This document shows positions 1 through 49,600 of a DNA stretch of 64,000 nt, in pieces. The translations under genes and the position numbers were made by a program. Below the pieces are notes generated by a model. The model had not been told where the DNA came from, did no database searches, and worked only from the letters and a program-made list of their open reading frames with translations. Location of the stretch: positions 10,540,001 through 10,604,000 of the forward strand of contig NW_025963779.1 of NCBI RefSeq assembly GCF_023055435.1. Reading direction: 5' to 3'. The DNA is from Haliotis rufescens. Taxonomy: Eukaryota. How positions within the stretch are numbered: the first letter of the stretch is position 1; each line of letters begins with the position of its first letter.

Positions 1-123
1 TGTAACATGGTGTAAACTATCCACACACAGTCACATACACTATTTTAACCTTTATTTAAACGTCGATAACAAATGTCAAGGCAATTCGGACAGAATATAC
101 TAGTATCGTTTTTTAAGTTCAAA

Positions 124-153
124 CAGAGACCATATATCAGTATACGATCTCTG
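124..153. mobile_element. 30-bp CAGAGA...TCTCTG inverted-repeat remnant with 7-bp TSD (P-element-like footprint)
   Basis: GTTCAAA|CAGAGACCATATATCAGTATACGATCTCTG|GTTCAAA. Confidence 0.7.
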
Positions 154-624
154 GTTCAAATGTCTTCACCACAAATTATTTGAAACTGGTGCTTAATTTA
201 TTATATATCAGGACAATCTGGGTATGGATCAATAATATGTTAGAAATGTCATCAAATGACAATGAAAATACAAGTAACATTGGTTAGTCATACATATGTA
301 GTGGTTAGGCAATCATTATCTTTGGATTTTCCTTGGGCCATGACGTCACAAATTGAGGTCCTATTGATATAATTTCCGTTTATTATTATTTCTTTTCGCA
401 ACAACGGCATCGAAAAAATCCCAGTACACTACAATCACTTTAACTATTGTATAGTAAGGAGGTTATGTATTCCTTTTGTAAACTTTTGTCATTAAATATT
501 TATGTGAACATCACTACATTTAGTGTCATGGCGGCGCCCGGTGATCATGTTTTCTTCCGTATGTCGTCACATTAACTAGCGCTGTAATCGTTGTCATAGG
601 CTCAAAAGACAGGAAAAGAAGAAA

Positions 625-34037: not shown

Positions 34038-37000
34038 TCACTCTATTTCTCCGAGGTACATCTTCTTATCACTTGAACAGGAGAGCACTGGAAAGAAACA
34101 AAGAGTCCTCAAATTTCCACAACAATCAAACATTCATACTTGTAGCATAGATGTTTGTTTGGCTGTTGTTCAACGCCACACTCAGCGATATTCCAGCTAT
34201 ATGACGACGGTCTGTAAATAATTGAGTCTGGACCAGACAATCCAGTGATTGACATCATGAGCATTGATCTATGCAATTGGGATATGATGACATGCATCAA
34301 CCAAGTCAGCAAACCTGACCCGATTCAGCATGGGTTGCTGAAGACCTTTTCTACCCTGGATCTTCACAGGTCACTTGTAGCATAGACCCTGGTTTGTGTA
34401 TGTTATGTGTAAAGTGCAGCATAAAAACATATAAAAACACTTTTATTTTTTCAGGTTAACATGGCATGGAAACTAGATTGTATACATGTCACATAAAAGA
34501 GGCAATAAAGTCTTAATTTACAGTCACGTGCAGGAACCACTAGATTTCAGAGAAGCTGATGTCCTACTGACAAATGAAACTTCAAAGGATACAAGTTTGT
34601 GAAGCAACATTACCTATTGGTTCGTGAGGGTGGAAGTCAACTTCATTGACTGAGCCAGCATGACCGGGAAGCTTGTATAAGATCCGTCGTGATGTTGTGT
34701 CCCACACATAGACGAAGCGGTCACCAGAACCTGCCGTCACCTTGCTGCCATCAGCTGACCATGAACAGTGCAACAGATTCTGAAATGAAAACCAAAACTT
34801 GAAAACAAGAAAATGGAAAAACTTGCATAAAATGCACTGGTAACCCATTGGTGCCAACATTTTTGTGTTAATATTTTATAATTTTCAGCTTGGAAAGGTT
34901 AAAATTAAAATAAAAGAAAGCAACAGTGTGTACGATTCTGAAATTTAAATTGATAAGTGTGATTACCGGCATCATGCATATCCATTGCTTCCAATCTCTG
35001 GTGCCTTGGCCAAATTTTACATCATATCTTATATGGCTTATTTTTGAAACATTTTCAGATTGGGCAGATCAAATTAATCACAAAAGAATTTATGGTACCT
35101 GAATAGTCTGTATCCTATTTAGGGATCCATTGATGTGAAAAATGGGATCATGAATATTTTTGAAGATATTTTTATGAAATCATGTGCTCAGCCTTCACTA
35201 CAAAACAATATCATCTAAAATATGTATGATCCCCAACTGATTATATTCAGTCTAAGAATTCCTTATTTCATCAGATACTAAAGAATTCAGTCAGTGTATA
35301 GTTCACATGACTATCAGCAAAATCAGGGCAGTCTGTAAATACTAAAGATGTGGTAAGGTTGCTTATAGATTTATATGGACCTTATCCCAAGAGAACCTAA
35401 GGTTTGGCTGATGTCATGTTGCCTGTACTATTGAAGTCACTGTCACTGCAGTAAAACCCTGCTGACCATACCTTCTCAAATGTATGTTGATGACCTTGAA
35501 ATATCTTTACGCATCGTTCCTGGGGTGCAAAGGGTCGGATATCCCACACTCTCACTGTAAGAACAGAACATAATTGATCACAGTTTGACGAAATAGAGGA
35601 AAACACATATGTTTTTCATCCTAGCTGAAAACTCTTAATGAAACTTGATCATATCTTCTGAGACCAATTAAAAAGCCTTATGAAATGAGTGAATAGGGTG
35701 TCACACTGAAGACTGCAATTTTTCAGGCGTATCACAGCAACACGTAAAGTCATCAGGCTTTCCCCAGACAAACCAGTGGTCGATAGTGTGGCCATCCAGA
35801 TATAAAGCAACAGTTATATTTTCTTGGGAACAAGCGAGAGTGTGATATTGGAATTTTACGCTGATGTGAGCATTATTCCAGTAATTATTGAGGTCTTGGC
35901 CAGGTAAACCAATATTTCTTAAACAAGCATGGGTTACTGGCAATAAACAAGCATGGGATACTGGGGATAAACAAGCATGGAGTACTAGGGATAAACAAGC
36001 ATGGGATACTAGGGATAAACAAGCATGGAATACTAGGGATAAACAAGCATGGGATACTGGGGATAAACAAGCATGGGTTACTGGCAATAAACAAGCATGG
36101 GATACTGGCAATAAACAAGCATGGGATACTGGCAATAAACAAGCATGGGTTACTGGCAATAAACAAGCATGGGATACTGGCAATAAACAAGCATGGGATA
36201 CTGGCAATAAACAAGCATGGGATACTGGCAATAAACAAGTATGGGATAGTGGCAATAAACAAGCAGGGATACTGGCAATAAACAAGCATGGGATAATTGG
36301 GATAAACAAGCATGGGATACTGGGGATAAACAAGCATGGGTTACTGGCAATAAACAAGTATGGGATACTGGGGATAAACAAGCATGGGATACTGGGGATA
36401 AACAATCATTGGATACTGGCAATAAACAAGCATGGGTTACTGGGGATAAACAAGCATGGGATACTGGGGATAAACAAGCATAGGATACTTGAGATAAACA
36501 AGCATGGGATACTTAGGCTATAATCCCCACTCAAAGGGGCTAATAAAACTGCACATATACTTCTGATATGTTGATGTTCCTGTGGCCTTACATGTATTAT
36601 CCATAGCGTTCGAGAGGAGATAGGACCCATCTGGGCTGACCTCAATCCCAGTCACTGTGTCGGAGTGGCCTCGCATTCGATATAGCACATTGTTCTTCCT
36701 TAAATCCCATACCTGAAAAAACAAGCATAACATGAGCATCTACGCAACTGGGATGCGATGACATGCACCATCCAAGTCACCAAGCCTAACCACCCGATCT
36801 TGTTAGCCACTTGCTGAAAACCAACTCTATCCTGTGTATCAACAAGTGCAAAAGTGAGCGTGGCTCACTAATACCCCCGACCCGCCTAGTGTGTCAGTAG
36901 TTGCAAATTAAATAGCTAGGATAGCCTTAGGGTTTGAAAAATTCATAAAAAAATGGAAAATTAATAAAAACATTTTTTTCTTTTGACTGCAACCCTCCAT

Positions 37001-40000: not shown

Positions 40001-42224
40001 GATCGATAATCAAGATCATTATTGTAATAAAATGAGTCTTATCTCGTGAAGTGCAACAAATCACTTGAGCATGTTCATTAAAAGCATGAAAAGATTTGGA
40101 AAATATCTGTCGATGCCCAGTTGGGGTTACATATGTTTTGCAAATCATGCAATTGACTTAAATCTGCACTACAGTTGCCATGTTGTTTACAAACCAGATG
40201 TTGATTTTTTCCCACAATTTATGATTGGACTATGCACCGAATTTTTGGGACAGGCAAACTAAAACTAAGAAATTCCATCCTAGTGTGGCAAGAGTTTTGT
40301 TTGTTTGCTGTTTAACGCTGCACTCAGCAATACTCCAGATATGATGGTGGTCTATAAATAATCGATTCTGGACCAGACAATCCAGTGACTGACATGGTGA
40401 GCATCGATCAGCGCAATTGTGATACGATGACATGCATCAACCAGGTCGAGAGCCTTACCACCCACTCCCATTAGTCGCCTTTCATGGCAAGCATATGGGT
40501 TGCTGAGGATCTAGTCACCCAGGATCATCATGGGTCTTGGCAAGGGTGGAAAATGGACATAGTCAGTTCTCTCCCTTGCCTCGGGAGGACGTAGGGTGCA
40601 GAGCACTTATGTTAATAGAATGGATATGATACACTGGATAAGTGAGGTTCCACACAAGCTTACTTTGACTGTTCCATCATCACTTCCTGTGCACACCAGC
40701 TGTGGACCCCTTCTTGCAGGATTACAAGAGTTGACAAACGTCTGGTGACCTTTCAACTTGCGTATACGTGTTCCTGAATCAACATCCCACACTGCACCTG
40801 TCTTGTCCGTTGATACAGTGAACAGCATTCTAGATGGACATGAAGGAGTAAATGTAAACAACTGACAGAATGGGACGACATTTGCCTCATCATTTGAAGA
40901 ACTATGTAGCTGAATGTTGTGTAAGCTGGGATTGATCTAGGTATTCCGAGGTTAATATTCCGCTACAAACTTGTAGCAAATGCCATCCAAATTCCCAAAT
41001 TGGAATCAAAACCATTCAGGTAATTATACTTATACTTAGCATAATAGCTTTGTGAAAGCAACACTGACCTGATGGCTGATGGTTAATCATAATATATCCT
41101 AATAATTGCAAGTAACAATTTCACACATTTACCCTCCATCTGTGGAAAATTCTAAATCCATCACAGCTCCTGTGTGTCCTTTCAATACTGTGAAGTTCTC
41201 ACATTCCCCATATACTGTCCAAAAATCTGGAAATAAATGAAGAAGCACAATATAAAATATTTCTTGGTCCTGATTTTGAACTGATACATGAAAGTTTAGC
41301 AATAGTGTTATGGTTATCAGGTTATACCATGTTACACTGACATGTAGTATGACAGAAAAGTCCTTGCATCAAAAGATAGCTTGTCAGATATTTTCACAGC
41401 TAACATGTTAATTTGCTAACAGTATGCTGGAGAGCCTTTACATTATGTTTGATGATGATTTTTCAATGTGAATAAATGATTTTAATGGTATTTCAAATAA
41501 AAATTTCCACAAAACAAAAACAGCAGTCTTTCAATGCTCAAATTACTCACATATGAGCCTGTCAAACCCTGATGAAGCAATTAACTGCCCATCTGGAGAG
41601 AATTTGGCTGTAAATATTTCTCCCTCATGGCCTGTAAGCAGCATGATTGGCCCATCAAGACTAGATGTCCGAGGTGGACCCTGGCCCGAATAAACAAACA
41701 GAAAACTATGTTAACATCATTAAATATGTTTCTTCCAATTTTATTGTTGAGTAGAACTAGAAACACATTTCAGCCTGCAGTTTACAACCACAGTTATTTA
41801 TCTATCATTTTTCTGAGGAAGGCAAAAATATCTTTCCCATTTCATGCCTGTGCCAGGTAAAGTGATATCGTCAGTACTGATTCACTTCAGAATTTCATGA
41901 CACAGCACTGACAACAATATGGTTATGACAAAGAATAGTTTTCTTCAATACGAAGGGTTAATATACACTTTTCACCAATCTATATCCTAATTGTTTTCTT
42001 TCTAAAAACAAAATTACATTAACAGTGCAGTATGAAAACTAAATATAACAGGAGGGGAGACAATCCGCATACAGATATGGTCGGGCCGGTTTTCACGATC
42101 AACTTACATTCTGACTCTGTAGCAAAGCACCGTTCGTGTCGCCATCTGCTAAGACGACTTCATTTCCACGTGCCCGTTTAACGGGCACCAAAGCTCCATC
42201 CATTGCCTTTCTCTTGTGGTCCAT
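34038..42224 (-). CDS. SNRNP40: U5 snRNP 40 kDa WD40 protein (349 aa, 9 exons)
   Basis: complement(join(34038..34087,34614..34779,35472..35554,36592..36712,38647..38769,40664..40829,41133..41226,41551..41680,42108..42224)) = 1050 nt. Motifs [59 protein letters not shown] and terminal [12 protein letters not shown]. Confidence 0.96.
35921..36512. repeat. 24-bp minisatellite, ~25 copies, SNRNP40 intron
   Basis: Unit AAACAAGCATGGGATACTGG(CA/GG)AT; explains the 8-aa-periodic ORFs in the track. Confidence 0.97.
36841..37150 (-). mobile_element. Helentron-associated non-autonomous element (DINE-1/HINE architecture)
   Basis: On the - strand: TTATACCCC sub-TIR with a nearby inverted copy, (GTCY)n microsatellite, 3' GGGGTATT, hairpin AGTGAGCCACGCTCACT and CTTGTT end. 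Confidence 0.75.
37148..38636. repeat. 22-bp minisatellite, ~60 copies, interrupted by a SINE at 37192-37342
   Basis: Unit TGTATCAGTAT(T/A)AACAATCATG. Confidence 0.97.
39016..39392. mobile_element. Tc1/mariner-pogo type MITE
   Basis: TIRs CCGTATTCGACATAATAAGCGCC / GGCGCTTAATACGTCGAATACGG followed by TA. Confidence 0.75.
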
Positions 42225-43040
42225 GTTTACTATTTACTTTTGAAACGACAGAATCACGCTTCTTTTCAAACCGGAAGTTTATACATTAGGACATGCGCAT
42301 CTCACTTTCGGGAACCTGCAGCGCTATAGAGTATTTCAAAGTTTGTTGCGTGGAATTGGAAGTCTTGAGTATCCGAATGGAAAACAAACACAAACGCCAA
42401 ACATTTATTTTATTCGCTCGGACACCCACTCAGTAAACATCCACTCGATGTCATACTCAGCTCCCCGCCGAAGCGTCATTTAAAAACAAAATCATTATTA
42501 TATATATGCATGTTACCAGAGACCATATATTTATGGTCTCTGATGTTACCTTTTAGAGGGGTGTATTATGATCGGGGTCATACTACAAAATGCCATACAA
42601 AGTCAAAAACATTCAGTAGCGTTCGTCAATACGAATGAGACCTAGTGTATTAATCAGTTCATAAATTAAATAATAATTTGCAGAAGTGTGCAATTACTAT
42701 ATATGTTACTAACCTAGTTGGTTACAAAACGCGAAAATTACCAAATCACACAATGTAACCCCCCTGTCCTCCGAAAAAAATATTGATTGTGGCTTTGAGT
42801 TTAAAAGTAAATTCTAGCCCTATTTTTACAGCCTGGCTTGGGATTCTCACCATGCCCATGACCAGCTCACTGGCCTGAACACACACTATCATAGCGGGAT
42901 ATTAGCAGATTAGCCGAGAACAGACTATAGAGATCAAAGCGCCCTCTTACGGAAAGGTTTGGCGTCATCCTGGCGGATATGAAATAATTTTCGTGAATTC
43001 TGCGGCCAGTTTTAATCATATCAGTACAACACACTGTCCG
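42225..43040. promoter_or_regulatory. Bidirectional promoter SNRNP40/SRRT with probable non-coding SRRT exon 1 ending at 43040
   Basis: CCGGAAGT (ETS-like, 42271) and CATGCGCAT (NRF1-like, ~42292). Donor ccg|gtaaat at 43040. The SRRT ATG exon starts at an acceptor (43593), so an upstream exon is required. Confidence 0.5.
42517..42542. mobile_element. 26-bp CAGAGA...TCTCTG inverted-repeat remnant with 7-bp TSD (P-element-like footprint)
   Basis: ATGTTAC|CAGAGACCATATATTTATGGTCTCTG|ATGTTAC. Confidence 0.75.
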
Positions 43041-43600
43041 GTAAATTGTAAACAACAATGCGATTAAATCAACAGTTTGTTGACTGCCAACAATATAAAC
43101 ATAAATGGTCAAATTGTTAGCCACTGTGCACAAAATCTCTTGTCCCAGGTCAGGCACTGAAACCCCTTTCATCCCTGTTCTCAATGAAATACTTTTGTTC
43201 ATGATCGATGCCATTTCCTGCCAACTTATGTTTGCATAATACCCCAAGAGAATATTTAATGTATTGTGTACAAACGTGCTTACCCCGGTATGCAAGAAGG
43301 TACAACTGGACGTTTTCAGAAATACACATTTTTACCATCACCCCTAACCCCCACCATATAGGCTGTTGGTGTGTGTGTGTGTTCATCATCATCTAGATTG
43401 TATGTCCTTCAATATTTCCTCTTTCCGAGCATAACTTAAAGACTGAATGATTTTTCTTCTAATCCTTGTACATGTATTAACCATTGTCTGAAGTGACTTT
43501 TGCTATTGTGTGGTCAGGGGGATTGTGATTTTCTGATGACTCTTGTTCCATTAGTTTGGATCACTCTTGAAATGACAAGTTTCTTCTTCCAGGGTATAAG

Positions 43601-46600
43601 ATGGGTGACAGTGAGGATGAATATGATACACGAAGGAAAGGAAGAGACAAATTTCGACGGGAGAGAAATGATTATGATCGTCGAGATGATCGAAGAAGAG
43701 AGAACTGGGACCATGACAGGTGAGACTAATGATCTCACGTTTCTTCAATGGACAAATGTTTACATTGTTATGACATTCTAACTGGGGAATCTAGGAGAGA
43801 ATAATTTCCAACGAACCAGTCATATACATCAGGATGGTATAGAATATAAACATGCTTATTGATTAGGGGATGTTTGCAAAAGGGACACACTTCTAAACAG
43901 CAGCAAAGTCTTATTACAAAATCTTAGTCATGACAACATACACAAGTGTCACTAATGATCAAAGGCAGCGTTTGAAATTGACTCTAGTCCTGTTGTCCTT
44001 GATGAACTGGTGAATAGTTAAGGTATCATAAGGGCTAGTAGAAATTTGCCCTTTTTTATGGCTTTGTTATGTAATATCATAATAAGGACTAGTGACTAAA
44101 ACTGTTAGTTTCTATCGCTGATAGGTCAATCAACACGGAATCGAAGTATGTATTACAAAACTTAGTAAAGACAACACACACAGGTTTCATTGTTGATCAA
44201 AGTTTATTGTACATTTTGTTAACTCTTTTGATTAATGAAATAAAATTAGCCAACAAATGGAAACTAACACTTTTTGTTTTTTATGTTTGTACTTTTTCAT
44301 GTGGCCCTTTGAATTTGTAGTGTGACCCTTTTGACTTTTTAGTGTGGCTGTGTTGACTCGGGTCTCTCTGGCTCTTTTGACATGTGGCCTTTTTTCACTT
44401 GTGCCTGATGTTACAAGGTTGCACAGTTAGATGGAATGATTTCCTCTTGGTTGTGAGGTTTCTGCTTGTGTGTCATCATACACTGATACTTTTGTCCACT
44501 GGTTTCAAACACTTGATTATTTTAGTGATCATAATGTAATTATTAATCTCATAATTTTAGACGAGGTTCTGGTGGCCGATCACGTGATGCATGGAGCAGT
44601 AGAAGTAACCGTGACAACAGACGTGATCCATATGGGCGAGATTATGAGCCTCGTCGAAGAGAGAGGTTCAGCCCAACACGTCATGACATGAGCCCTCCCC
44701 ATGCTAAGCGTATGCGGAGAGACTGGTAAATAAACCTGTTTGTGACTACAGTTGGCTAATACTGACAGAGTAACCACTTCAGAATATGTCAGAATGTATT
44801 TTTCTCTCTCCTTACATTGTTTGAAATTAAGAACGCAAGTCAAGGGATCTTTGTCATAACTCTTATGTGAAAGTGTACAGATTGAGGGTCACTACTATAG
44901 AACCAAACCTCAAGGACCCTAGGGACCCCATTAATTGTTAACACTGTCATAGACATTGGTACTTTCTCTCAATGTGATTTTTTTAATTGGTTTAGTTAAA
45001 TCCACAATCTGCAATAAATTGAAAGTGAAAAAAAAGACCTGAAATGTACTTTTTGTTTTTGATTGAAATCTCTTTTTATGTTAGTTTCCCCAACTACCAT
45101 CCAGGATTTTTCTTAAAAAAAGTCCACAATCCAAAGAAGAAAAATCTGGCCTTAACCATGTTAACAGCTGCCTGTGATATGTCGTATTGTGATATGAAGT
45201 TGATAAATATTACCAGTATTCCAAATGTTGTATTGGGTGCATTAATCTGCACCTTGTAGAACTTTTCAAATACTTCTTCCATGTGTGACTTACAATATAT
45301 ATATGCTACTCAAAAGAAGTTAAAGAACACCCAATTTGTTCATATGACTATAGTTATTCTGTCATGGCTGGTGGTCATTGCAAAACACAGCCTTCCAATT
45401 GTGGGTGTTCTTTAACTTCTTGTGAGTAGTATATATATATACAGTGACACCCCGTCTATCCAGACATTTTTACTGTTCTCCGAATAAAGGAATCCTGGGT
45501 ACAGAGTAATGTCCCTTTATGTATTTAGCCATTCCCCTAAATAATCGACAGAAGATTATGTCAGAACTAGTTGGGTCTGGACTTATGGGTTTGTCACCAT
45601 ATAATAAGCCACTGAATAAAAAACCCAGAAAAAACCTATATGGAGTAAACATAGAAATCATCCTCCAACCTCAGAATACTAGTTTAAGGACATGTTATGT
45701 GTTGATTTATGTAATTATCTATCATCTATCCAAAAAAGAAATCTGAAATGTATTCCTTTCCTGTTTATGACCCATGTCTACATTGTCAGGGATGGAGGAG
45801 GCGGAGGTGGTGGGGGAGGGGGAGGAGGCGGAGGAGGAGGGGGTGGGGGCGGAGGCGGAGGGTATGGAAGCCACTATGACATGCCTTACGGAGGAGGGCC
45901 AATGCATGGTGGAGGGGGCCACCCACACCATGAAGGCACCTGGGGACCTGGCCCAGAAATCGCAAGCATCCAAGGTCCGCCACAGCAGCAGGGAGGCTTC
46001 GGCAATGTACCCAACCAGGGAAGGTCAGTAATAGGACAGTGTTAGAAATTGGAACTAGTCCTTGCCAAACTGCCCAATAGTTAAGGTATCATAAGGACTA
46101 GAAGAAATTTGCCATTATTGAGGGTTTTACTATAGGTTATCATCACAAGGACTAGTTTCTGTCACTGTAGGACCAATCAGAATGTTAGTTACATGTTGCA
46201 TATTGCATGACAGTTAAAAAATAATGCATAAGAGTCATGCTTTGACCTAATGGTGTGCAAGACTTGTTCGTCTTCCAGATAAATTTATCTGGATCATATT
46301 CATACTATACCTAAAAATGTCTGTATTTTCTCTGTCTCAAGTATTCACATGAAACGTCTGTAGCTATTTGCATACAAGGACCAAAACAGTACATATGCAT
46401 GAAAGTGTTATCTGCAAGGAAAGTACAGGGATAACAGGCTTGGATAAACAAAGGTTCATCTTTTGATTGGTCATTGTTGTTGTCTGTGACTTTTGTTGGT
46501 CAGAGACAAGTCACAAACGTGACAAGAATATTATCAAACATGGACTGGGGCAGTCGGGTAGCCTAGTGGTTAAAGCATTTGCTTGTCATGCGGAAGACCT

Positions 46601-49600
46601 GGGTTCGATTCCCAGCATGGGTACAATGTGTGAAGCCCATTTCTGGTGTCCCCCGCCATGATATTGCTGGAATATTGCTGTAAGCGGCATAAAACCATAT
46701 TTACTCCCACACTTACTCAAACATTGACTAGAATGTGAACGAGTTATACCACAACACATAACACAACATAAATAATATCACTCACTATTTGCTCCTGGTA
46801 TATCCTTTATTTTCAGGGGGCACGGGTGGCCCAGTTGTCTAAGGCGCCGCCATTTGCTGTGCAGATTTGCTTCCCTTGGGCACGCCAGAAACCTATGATT
46901 GTGGGTTCGAATCCCGGTTCGCCCCAATTATGTTTCTAGGTTTGTCAGCACCATACCCGTGCTCGTGGGTTTCACCGAAGTGGTAAACGTCTGAGACCTG
47001 CATCACTTGGGGCTTTCCTCCCACATTAAGCTGACACGCCGTGATATAACTGGAATAATGTTAAAAGCGGCGTTAAACCCAACTCACTCACTCACTCTTT
47101 TGTTTTCATTGATGAGTTGGAAGTTTTTGCCTGTTGCATCAAAGTTACCTTCTTGTACACAGTGTCATACAAACTTATGTTTCATTGAGGAACTTGGGAA
47201 CTTAAACTCGCAAAATTATGTAATCTGTCCATCCGAACTACAGATTAACACTTGTGACATACTTGTTTCTGGTCTAACAAAAGTATGATGCAAGGAGACA
47301 GGTTTGGACTTCATGATGACAGCATGGTTTGAAACCTTGTTGATGTTTTGGTTTGGAGCCTGTTAAAAACTTCATTGATATTTTGACGTGGGAGGATCCG
47401 GGTTAGAATTGGTCTTCAACAACCCATGCTTGTCATAAGAGGCTACTAACAAGATTGGTGATCAGGCTTGCTGACTTGGTTGATGCATGTCATCATATCC
47501 TACTTGTGTAAATCGATGCTCATGATGTCAATCTGTGGATTGTCTGGTCCAGACCCGATTATTTACAGACCACAGTCACATAGCTTGAATATTGTTGAGT
47601 GTGGCGTTTCAACAACAAACAAAGAAGAAAGTTTGATGTTTTACTGTTTGCAGAATGGATGTGGACTACCCGACCCAGCCCTCGATGATGACGTTCAAGC
47701 AGTACCTCACACAGCAAGATGATAACATTAATGACCAAGATGCTATCAAGAAATATAATGAATACAAACAGGATTTCAAGAAAATTCAGATTAATGAGTT
47801 CTTTCTTGCCCACAAAGAAGAGGAATGGTATGTAGCTTTGGGTGTCTGGTCAACCTTCGACTCGAAACTAAATATGAGTCCTTGCATTATTTTATCAATT
47901 ATATGAATAATTGAGATTGATATATTGACTGTACAAAATGCATTTTGTGGTTGGAAGAAAAGTTTCATTTGAGTAAAGGTTTTGGATGAATTTCTAGAAA
48001 AATTCCTAAATTGCTATTTCAATCTGTTATATTACATGAGACAATGATGGTGACAATCCAAGGGATATATCACACACCTGGATTATGTTATCCTATATGT
48101 AGTTGATAACTGTTGAAATCTGTCGAAGTTGTATTCATAAATGAACATTGATGCATATCGAAGCAAATGGTAATGCTATGAATTTGTTTGTGTAATCTCT
48201 TTGAAAAATCACTTAGAAGATTGTTCAATTTGTAAGAATATTGTTTATTTTATGTTTGTAAAGGGGATCAGGTTTATTGATATAAATCAGAGCATGATCA
48301 CTATTTCATATTTCATGTACATTCAAAATTTGGGTTGCTTTTATTGTCCATGTTCGCGAATTCAGTAAACCCACATATATGCTGCCTGATTCCCTTTACT
48401 TATTATATTAACTTACTTTTTCACCCCCTATAAAGGAGCTGGGTTGCTATGGTGAATAATGCAATGACCTATCACTGGCCTGCTATGAAAATGAGATAGC
48501 CAATCACAAGAACCCTTTCACCGGAGCATGGATTTAGCTTAGGGTACTGCGCACAATGCAGTCTTTAGTTGATGAAAGTGTTAGGCATAGTGTAAGGTTC
48601 GTGAAAATATGTCATCGGAAATATTGTGACCGAAATATTACATTCCCGGGAATCACCAGTGTATGGTGGTGTCTACGTTGCAAGCAGGTAATTTCTGGTA
48701 AATACGATGGCTTCTGTTGCAGGTGAATCACCAACATGTATATTTTTGTTAACACAATGTTATGCCTATACAATGATGTGTTCTATTAAGTATGAAGACT
48801 TTGCGATTGATCATCTGTAAAGGCATAATGCTTGACGTTAAGCTAATGTTCTTTTTCAGATTATGTCCATAAGTCATGTTTTGATCTATGTTGATTGACG
48901 AACAAATTTCTAAAGGAGCATTAGTTTTACAATAATTATGTTTCATTTGAACATGTGTTGAAGAGAATAATCGATTAACTTCATCTTATTGAAGACCAAA
49001 AAGTGATCCTTCAGCTAATGAATTCTTGAATAAATAGGTGTTGCTATTCGGATGAAGCACTTGGGAACCTTAGAAACTGATGTTATGTTGAAATGTATTT
49101 AATTATATGTGATTTTTTAGGAATAGCTTCAATATTACAGATTTCAATGTGTCACTAAGGATCACCATTTTGATTTTAGAAACACAGATTTTGCAATGTT
49201 CACAGTTGTCTGTAAGAGTAATTGGGTTACTTGAGGCTTTTTCTCAAAGGAAGGAATGTGAAAGGCTTAATGGACTCATGTACAGTGTTTTATTTCTGGT
49301 TTGTTTTACTTGATAGGTTCAAACTGAAATACCATCCTGAAGAATGTGAGAAGCGTCAAGATGAAGTCAGAATGGCTTTGTTGAAAAGGTTGAGGGTTTT
49401 CACTGAACTGATGCAGCAAGATCGTTTAGAAAGCATCATGCTGGACATTGATAACACAGAAGACATCATTAAAGTGCTAGATGCAGGTAAGATGGTTGTA
49501 ATGGGCTTTTACATACATTGACTAGTTATATAGACACTGACATTGACATTGACACAGGTAGACTGTTTGCATCACCAACTCATTCTCTTTCTAATTGCCA

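What the first reader, a model, noticed from the sequence alone, without database searches (positions are those of the whole stretch)
42510..42549. Second P-like footprint, inside the bidirectional promoter
Seen: ATGTTAC|CAGAGACCATA-TATT-TATGGTCTCTG|ATGTTAC, with perfect 11-bp arms and a perfect 7-bp TSD different from that at 117-160, so an independent event. Variable middle length (26 vs 30 bp) fits end-joining of TIR overhangs after excision better than a fixed MITE. Both copies found lie in promoters.
Basis: partly seen in the sequence, partly recalled or inferred. Interest (0 to 1): 0.7.

Follow-up and report, generated by a model that had tools for sequence, protein, structure and literature searches.

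The report
Excision scar of split-gene P transposon
This 26-letter palindrome between two 7-letter repeats is one of roughly 900 such marks in this genome and is likely the scar left when a P-type jumping gene cut itself out; the matching full-length elements are present, encode the enzyme's tail domain as a separate facing gene, and likely cut 17 to 19 letters inside their own ends depending on the family.

Summary
The 26-bp palindrome with a 7-bp duplication is one of 882 genomic matches (control 0); 47 of 58 sampled have a 7-bp duplication with at most one mismatch, and 49 of 58 differ in sequence. Full-length P-superfamily elements with the same ends were found. An empty allele (single ATGTTAC) appears in 1 of 5 DNA runs. 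Arms stop sharply: 642 stop at the cap and 21 go one base further. The cap is 18 nt in family A and 17 in B. In families C and D, tested after prediction, it is 17 and about 18/19, and D scars join one left to one right end in 59 of 62. Each cap falls inside an internal repeat of the element's first bases. So the footprint reading holds. The 'promoter' claim is only partly right: an RNA-like contig from a related organism places the scar in the first 5'-UTR intron of the SRRT-like gene, and no general promoter enrichment was shown. The parent transposase lacks its C-terminal domain, which a convergent gene encodes (Z 11.5 to Drosophila's). The scan noted such scars and split transposases before, in other genomes.

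The parts
42510..42516 (.). Left copy of the 7-bp target-site duplication (ATGTTAC)
   Evidence: Sequence; fits the family target pattern T at position 2 and A at position 6 (58 of 74 each); single copy in the empty allele
42517..42529 (+). Left arm: first 13 nt of the terminal inverted repeat shared by P families A and B
   Evidence: 13-nt exact match to the ends of L040:1260 and L041:830
42530..42531 (.). Junction (TT); one edit away from three simple joins (13+13 blunt, 15+11, or the 27-bp microhomology product of family A), so the parent family cannot be fixed
42532..42542 (-). Right arm: first 11 nt of the terminal inverted repeat
42543..42549 (.). Right copy of the 7-bp target-site duplication
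42331..42831 (+). Probable first (5'-UTR) intron of the SRRT/Ars2-like gene; it contains the scar
   Evidence: One RNA-like contig of organism C (run X16, RNA status is the tool's guess) skips 42331-42832 with one letter between; GT..AG ends with a pyrimidine tract
42832..43040 (+). Probable second, non-coding exon of the SRRT/Ars2-like gene, spliced to the exon holding the ATG at 43601
   Evidence: Loose end of the X16 contig continues into the 43594 region; splice ends; SERRATE_Ars2_N hit at 49222-49518
42108..42224 (-). First coding exon of a WD40 gene (SNRNP40-like; the name is recalled by resemblance), head to head with the SRRT-like gene
   Evidence: Translation and donor site; RNA-like contigs X15 and X16 splice at 42107; WD40 hits at 40607-40933
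117..160 (.). Independent scar of the same kind (30 bp, duplication GTTCAAA), with a decayed right arm

Best explanation
The 26-bp palindrome between two ATGTTAC copies consists of the outermost bases of both ends of a P-superfamily DNA transposon found elsewhere in this genome, and it is likely the healed donor site left after that element excised. SHOWN: the arms match the ends of full-length elements that encode a P-type transposase; the 7-bp duplication is real (an empty allele has one copy); junctions vary; arms almost never pass a family-specific cap (18 nt in A, 17 in B and C, about 18 left and 19 right in D); common short forms are the microhomology products of the end sequence. INFERRED, from the Drosophila mechanism: the element inserted at ATGTTAC; the transposase later cut one strand flush with each end and the other 17-19 nt inside, leaving long 3' overhangs of end sequence on the chromosome; these were trimmed and end-joined. 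INFERRED: the inner cut is placed by an internal repeat of end nucleotides 2-7, so that the freed strand can pair with the terminal bases of the transferred strand, as in the Drosophila strand-transfer complex. The scar itself lacks the inner end sequence and is likely immobile and neutral.
For: 882 copies, control 0. 7-bp duplication exact in 37 and within 1 mismatch in 47 of 58; shuffled mean 1.3, max 7; an exact 8-bp duplication in 2 of 59. Parent elements: L040:1260-9283 (family A) and L041:830-7889 (family B) with about 30-bp inverted ends and exact 7-bp duplications, P-type RNase H and GTP-binding domains, best PDB hit Drosophila P transposase, E 1.5e-13. Cap: 642 arms reach it and continue with a non-G base, 21 continue with the element's own G; 34 family-A arms stop at 17; in the 59-locus sample 21 A arms are 18 nt and none longer. 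One-sided remnants keep 18, 17, 17 and 15 nt of the far end (L057, L049, L066, L065). Prediction made: 20-bp and 18-bp microhomology products should dominate the 16-21 bp class; by hand count 36 and 13 of 57 listed places, against one 19-bp, no 16 or 21-bp, and seven 17-bp copies that share flanks. Family D, whose two ends differ: 59 of 62 listed scars join one left and one right end (hand count). Family C: 8 of 9 arms that reach 17 nt stop there (hand count). Internal repeat of nt 2-7 at offset 16 (A), 15 (B, C), 16 and 17 (D). Empty allele in run X10; identical scar in X2, X3, X11, X13. Drosophila 17-nt overhangs and junction classes: PMC2895639 (passages); strand pairing: PMC7776569 section 8.
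Against: No allele with the full element at this site was seen (5 DNA runs, contigs only, which drop rare variants). This 26-mer is not an exact simple join; it needs one later edit. 11 of 58 sampled scars have a poor 7-bp duplication (two of them have an exact 8-bp one). 21 arms pass the cap. The cap has a 1-nt ambiguity: for A and B a 17/16-nt overhang plus an added A cannot be excluded from sequence alone, and for D the 37-bp product reads as 18+19 or as 19+20 with a 2-nt overlap. The family C repeat is imperfect (needs two wobble pairs). At least 43 copies are passengers of one scar inside a larger repeat, and a tandem array on contig C445 adds more, so independent events are fewer than 882. 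The empty allele may be a later precise loss rather than the ancestral state.
Confidence: 0.9

Rival explanations
1. Micro-MITE: the 20-40 bp palindromes are tiny non-autonomous elements that the P transposase moves intact, making a new 7-bp duplication each time.
For: Some sequences recur at unrelated sites with different duplications (the commonest in 4 of 58; many identical 30-bp and 20-bp forms).
Against: The recurrent forms are mostly the predicted microhomology or full-length joins. 49 of 58 are distinct. All lack the inner end sequence that surviving mobile copies keep (nine 1.9-2.8 kb non-autonomous copies with both full ends). The clear multi-copy cases share flanks, so they were copied inside a host repeat.
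Confidence: 0.04
2. Aborted gap repair rather than direct joining: after excision the break began copying the element from the sister chromatid, stopped early and was end-joined, so the scars are extreme internal deletions and the cap marks a synthesis stall rather than the cut.
For: One-sided derivatives of 52-488 bp exist, as do 21 arms past the cap. In Drosophila most products are aborted synthesis plus end joining (PMC2895639, passage).
Against: A stall would not be expected at one exact base in four families; 642 versus 21 is a sharp step. Even the one-sided derivatives keep no more than the cap on their short side.
Confidence: 0.05
3. A conserved transcription-factor palindrome in a bidirectional promoter.
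For: It lies about 300 bp upstream of one start codon in a CpG-rich, head-to-head region (o/e 1.21 at 42000-42500) and is identical in a second species label.
Against: Site-specific 7-bp duplications, variable spacing, an allele that lacks it, identity with transposon ends, and an apparently intronic position.
Confidence: 0.01

Closest known systems
Drosophila melanogaster P-element donor-site end-joining products (PMC2895639, Table 1 and passages seen)
   Same: Both target-duplication copies kept; arms made only of element end sequence up to a fixed cap; microhomology, blunt and small-insertion junctions.
Drosophila P element and its 87-kDa transposase (PDB 6P5A; review PMC7776569, section 8 read)
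   Same: RNase H domain with GTP-binding insertion; about 30-bp inverted ends beginning CA; a C-terminal-domain fold is encoded in the element.
   Different: The C-terminal domain is not part of the transposase reading frame; a convergent gene on the opposite strand encodes it, behind an extra helical region and, in several relatives, a C2H2 finger. No THAP domain was detected in the long reading frame (upstream exons not examined).
Galileo (P superfamily; PMC4168063, passages seen)
   Same: 7-bp duplication with palindromic consensus GTANTAC; here [G/C/A]TNNNA[C/G/T].
   Different: Galileo has very long foldback ends; these families have about 30-bp ends.
Zebrafish Pdre2 / THAP9 (PMC10983969, passages seen)
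   Same: P-type transposase outside Drosophila.
   Different: 13-bp ends and 8-bp duplications; the passages seen do not map an overhang length for it.

Membership tests
P-type excision footprint (donor-site end-joining product) | Both copies of the target duplication retained, one copy in the empty allele | tested here: met
   run X10; 47 of 58
P-type excision footprint (donor-site end-joining product) | Arms derive from both ends of a real parent element | tested here: met
   families A, B; family D, left+right in 59 of 62 by hand count
P-type excision footprint (donor-site end-joining product) | Arm length capped at a long fixed overhang; heterogeneous and microhomology junctions | tested here: met
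P-type excision footprint (donor-site end-joining product) | A full-element allele at the same site, or observed excision | tested here: inconclusive
   None in 5 DNA runs laid as contigs; contigs cannot show absence
P superfamily (parent elements) | RNase H-type transposase with GTP-binding insertion domain | tested here: met
   PF21787, PF21788, PF21789; 6P5A chain A, E 1.5e-13
P superfamily (parent elements) | Inverted ends beginning CA and a 7- or 8-bp duplication (7 bp as in Galileo, PMC4168063; the general CA..TG rule is recalled) | tested here: met
   Four families with exact 7-bp duplications
P superfamily (parent elements) | [quoted passage not shown] | tested here: inconclusive
   Not found in the stop-to-stop frames scanned; upstream exons not examined; 3 of 120 listed relatives carry PF05485
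P superfamily (parent elements) | GTP-dependent, long staggered cleavage shown biochemically | not testable with these tools
   Only the genomic proxy (arm caps) is available
Canonical single-gene P/THAP9 architecture | C-terminal domain in the same polypeptide as the catalytic core | tested here: not met
   The transposase ends 73 residues after the third catalytic motif; 97 of 97 relatives with a recognisable motif (of 120 listed) end 49-81 residues after it; the domain is in a separate convergent frame
MITE (fixed, self-amplifying miniature element) | One conserved sequence amplified to many sites, keeping the full ends | tested here: not met
   49 distinct of 58; inner end sequence absent in nearly all

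The most novel reading that the evidence does not exclude
A widespread invertebrate lineage of P transposons builds its enzyme from two proteins, a catalytic core and a separately encoded C-terminal domain, and places its inner cut by a sequence register (the internal repeat of end nucleotides 2-7) rather than by a fixed 17-nt ruler, giving 17-, 18- and 19-nt overhangs, even different ones on the two ends of one element. Genomic scars then let the cut site of any such family be read from sequence alone.
Probability: 0.55. Interest if true: 0.75.

Novelty: new variant of a known kind. Interest (0 to 1): 0.6.

Why it matters
The single scar is an ordinary, probably neutral mark. As a class it is useful. 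[quoted passage not shown] Hundreds of natural scars from four families in one genome suggest that the long cut is used outside Drosophila, that its depth varies, and that it tracks a short internal repeat, which is a directly testable rule. The parents also separate the domain that, in the fly structure, carries the looped-out strand, which offers a natural two-component system. For annotation, these palindromes should be read as transposon history, not as regulatory motifs.

Tried and rejected
Promoter enrichment: CpG o/e near 59 scars was 0.75 (within 250 bp) versus 0.65 in 200 control kb windows (p=0.013 for the 500-bp flanks), but a peak-with-trough pattern was 6 of 58 versus 4 of 60 (p=0.53), and eight recalled promoter motifs showed small or no differences; not established, and there was no gene annotation to test against. 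Complex prediction of the transposase core with the second protein gave no answer (score 0.00, alignments not used, partner fold uncertain). Foldseek found no match at E 0.001 or better for the second protein; 6P5A chain B appears at rank 47 with probability 0.82. A 4-sequence profile missed 6P5A chain B; the 118-sequence profile found it. Pfam did not name the second protein itself; 8 of 118 aligned members hit Tnp_P_element_C weakly. No RNA holder was listed on record and no raw RNA-seq was laid, so start sites were not mapped. In 6 of the 20 element ends followed, no partner end with a matching duplication was found within 8.4 kb. No inverted ends were found around several of the 16 transposase matches. 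The parent family of this 26-mer could not be assigned. Eight literature searches listed no paper on genome-wide P footprints in molluscs, on overhang-length variation or on two-gene P elements; Repbase and most subscription journals are not in the library, so this is not proof of novelty. No supplements were read.

Full report
OBSERVATION. The sequence is as reported: ATGTTAC at 42510-42516 and 42543-42549 around a 26-bp middle with perfect 11-bp arms. The copy at 117-160 has another 7-bp duplication and a 30-bp middle. A scan of the window for such structures finds only these two, and 0 of 25 simulated windows have one with arms of 8 nt or more.

A GENOME-WIDE CLASS. The window lies in a 1.33-Gb genome. 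A transposase from locus L038 is 100% identical over the searched region to a protein that NCBI names from Haliotis rufescens, so this is most likely an abalone. The arm-gap-arm pattern (22-42 bp) occurs 882 times; the reversed control 0 times. I examined 75 fetched loci (the first 15 places listed, plus 60 picked by two flank dinucleotides); these collapsed to 59 after removing duplicates, and to 58 after removing one more member of a tandem array. Of the 58, 37 have an exact 7-bp duplication and 47 at most one mismatch, against a shuffled mean of 1.3; 49 have distinct middles. Of the 59, 39 are 34 bp or shorter and 48 are 36 bp or shorter. Counts by class, per strand, with a flank filter that drops places whose ninth flank base is G: 22-30 bp 306/314, 33-36 bp 181/178, 37-67 bp 220/230, 16-21 bp with 8-nt arms 60/59. 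Not all are independent: 43 of the 44 rows are one roughly 37-bp scar carried in a repeat of at least 2.3-2.9 kb, and a tandem array on contig C445 repeats another. The target pattern has T at position 2 and A at position 6 in 58 of 74, like Galileo's GTANTAC (PMC4168063, passages).

THE PARENTS. A search with the GTP-binding-domain family PF21788 gave 16 matches. Around them lie elements with the same ends and exact 7-bp duplications: family A (L040:1260-9283, 8.0 kb) and family B (L041:830-7889, 7.1 kb; one base change in its right end). Two more families have related ends: C (L032:1531-8856) and D (L036:1131-8401). Intact A/B ends number 144 rows, an undercount because the filter drops most family A left ends. 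Of 20 ends followed, 9 belong to 1.9-2.8 kb non-autonomous copies with both ends, 5 to short one-sided remnants (52-488 bp), and 6 had no partner found. Four 2.1-kb copies are 98.7-99.2% identical with different duplications, so the family moved recently.

THE CAP. In the sample, 21 family A arms are 18 nt and none longer; 3 family B arms are 17 nt and none longer. Genome-wide, 642 arms reach this position and continue with a base other than the element's own G; 21 continue with G; 34 family A arms stop at 17. Before I predicted that the shortest class would be the 20-bp and 18-bp microhomology products; by my hand count of the 100 rows listed (of 119), 36 and 13 of 57 places are these. Enumerated microhomology products (18, 20, 22, 23, 25, 27, 28, 30 bp) include most of the recurrent short forms. 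End nucleotides 2-7 are repeated internally at offset 16 in A, 15 in B and C, and 16 and 17 at the two ends of D; the A and B caps fall one base into that repeat. For D I expected 18 and 19 before searching: (63/54 rows) shows the 37-bp full join three times, no arm running on into the repeat, and one left plus one right end in 59 of 62 listed places (hand count). For C I expected 17: (209/211 rows, 100 listed) 8 of 9 arms that reach 17 stop there (hand count). Limits: D may be read as 19/20 with a 2-nt overlap, and A and B could be one base shorter if an A is added during repair.

ALLELES. Five DNA runs were laid as contigs. X2 and X3 (organism A) and X11 and X13 (organism B) hold the same 26-bp scar; X10 (labelled organism A, but a haplotype with 32 differences in about 1,960 bases, many shared with organism B) joins 42504 to 42543 with four letters between, i.e. 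a single ATGTTAC and no scar. A short, low-depth contig of organism C ends in the duplication plus the start of the arm with one change. So the duplication is real and the event likely predates the A/B split. Whether the empty allele is ancestral or a later precise loss is open. No full-element allele was seen.

LOCATION. A WD40 gene (SNRNP40-like by recalled resemblance) starts at 42224 on the minus strand; a SERRATE/Ars2-like gene has its ATG at 43601. One RNA-like contig from organism C covers 42107-42330, skips to 42833, runs to 43041 and splices to the ATG exon. The skipped part has GT..AG ends at 42331 and 42831. The shared promoter is then probably near 42250-42330, and the scar about 190 bp into the first intron. 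This rests on one contig from another organism whose RNA status is a guess. P elements favour some proximal promoters in Drosophila (PMC1592238, abstract and passages), but here a general promoter bias was weak on one proxy and absent on another.

SPLIT TRANSPOSASE. All four families carry a second frame on the opposite strand, 32-51% identical between families. A profile search found 1,546 relatives at E 0.001 or better; the best 150 are all 480 residues or shorter, and named ones come from molluscs, a hemichordate and amphioxus. A 118-sequence profile hits the C-terminal domain of Drosophila P transposase (6P5A chain B, E 2.4e-4). The predicted model (pLDDT 88) aligns to all 118 residues of that chain, Z 11.5, rmsd 2.4, next hit Z 7.2; the tool warns that Z under about 13 for helical proteins can be a common arrangement, but the gap, the full coverage and the sequence hit agree. 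The transposase ends 73 residues after its last catalytic motif, and 97 of 97 relatives in which the motif was found (120 listed) end 49-81 residues after it; that search used a query without the domain and so favours such relatives. That the two proteins work together is inferred, not shown; adjacency in other species was not tested.

MECHANISM. Established for Drosophila: excision leaves 17-nt 3' overhangs at the donor site, joined by microhomology, blunt or insertion junctions (PMC2895639, passages and Table 1); the cut is staggered by 17 nt, and the transferred strand loops across the C-terminal domain and pairs with the 5' part of the other strand (PMC7776569, section 8; PMC10983969, passages). 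Inferred here: insertion at ATGTTAC, staggered excision, trimming and end joining, then probably one later base change. Inferred: the internal repeat supplies the pairing partner and so sets the depth of the inner cut. The scar lacks that inner sequence and is probably inert.

PRIOR NOTES AND PRINT. I reached both readings before consulting earlier notes. The scan has recorded P-type scars and split P transposases in other genomes; these are unchecked AI notes and not support. Eight literature searches (listings only, apart from the five papers cited) did not list a description of either in print; Repbase was not searchable.

VERDICT. Real feature; P-type excision scar, confidence 0.9. The single scar is ordinary. 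The class, with family-specific caps that track an internal repeat and two-gene parents, is a new variant of a known kind. Interest 0.6.

Noticed in passing
L038:6104-7222 (-), L041:5644-6513 (-), L032:6303-7412 (-), L036:2629-3726 (+): Convergent second gene in all four P families; encodes the P-transposase C-terminal-domain fold as a separate protein, in several relatives with an N-terminal C2H2 finger.
   Followed up: yes
L040:8079-8113; also L038, L042, L045: Family A elements carry a P-type scar inside themselves (duplication CTATTAG), i.e. an earlier insertion and excision within the element.
   Followed up: no
L105, L108, L110, L112, L113, L114 (and 43 rows): An unidentified repeat of at least 2.3-2.9 kb, about 97% identical between copies, carries one 37-bp scar inside a 205-bp internal direct repeat and has spread it.
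   Followed up: partly
L094-L097, L120-L127 (G000 C445, about 28.692-28.693 Mb): A scar has become part of the unit of a tandem array with a period near 58 bp; a family C scar forms a similar array on contig C41.
   Followed up: no
G000 C1:32079981 and C1:55454436: Nested scars: a scar next to a further arm, consistent with re-insertion beside or into an earlier scar.
   Followed up: no
window 117-160 and L148: The first copy also lies between head-to-head genes: a TSEN34-like start at 626 (+) and MCM3-like exons about 1.5 and 3.7 kb left of the window (-); both names are recalled by resemblance.
   Followed up: partly
window 42832-43040: The probable non-coding exon of the SRRT-like gene holds short upstream reading frames (MPMTSSLA and a minimal MK-stop).
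   Followed up: no
window about 35700-36520: A tandem array of short units (apparent period near 24 bp from the repeated translations) with long open frames on both strands, within the WD40 gene region.
   Followed up: no
window about 43440-43550: A common short interspersed repeat: many unrelated contigs pile up here in all four runs.
   Followed up: no
run X10 on window 41800-43800: Labelled as the same organism as the window, yet its haplotype shares many variants with organism B and two with organism C; possibly a hybrid or another species.
   Followed up: no
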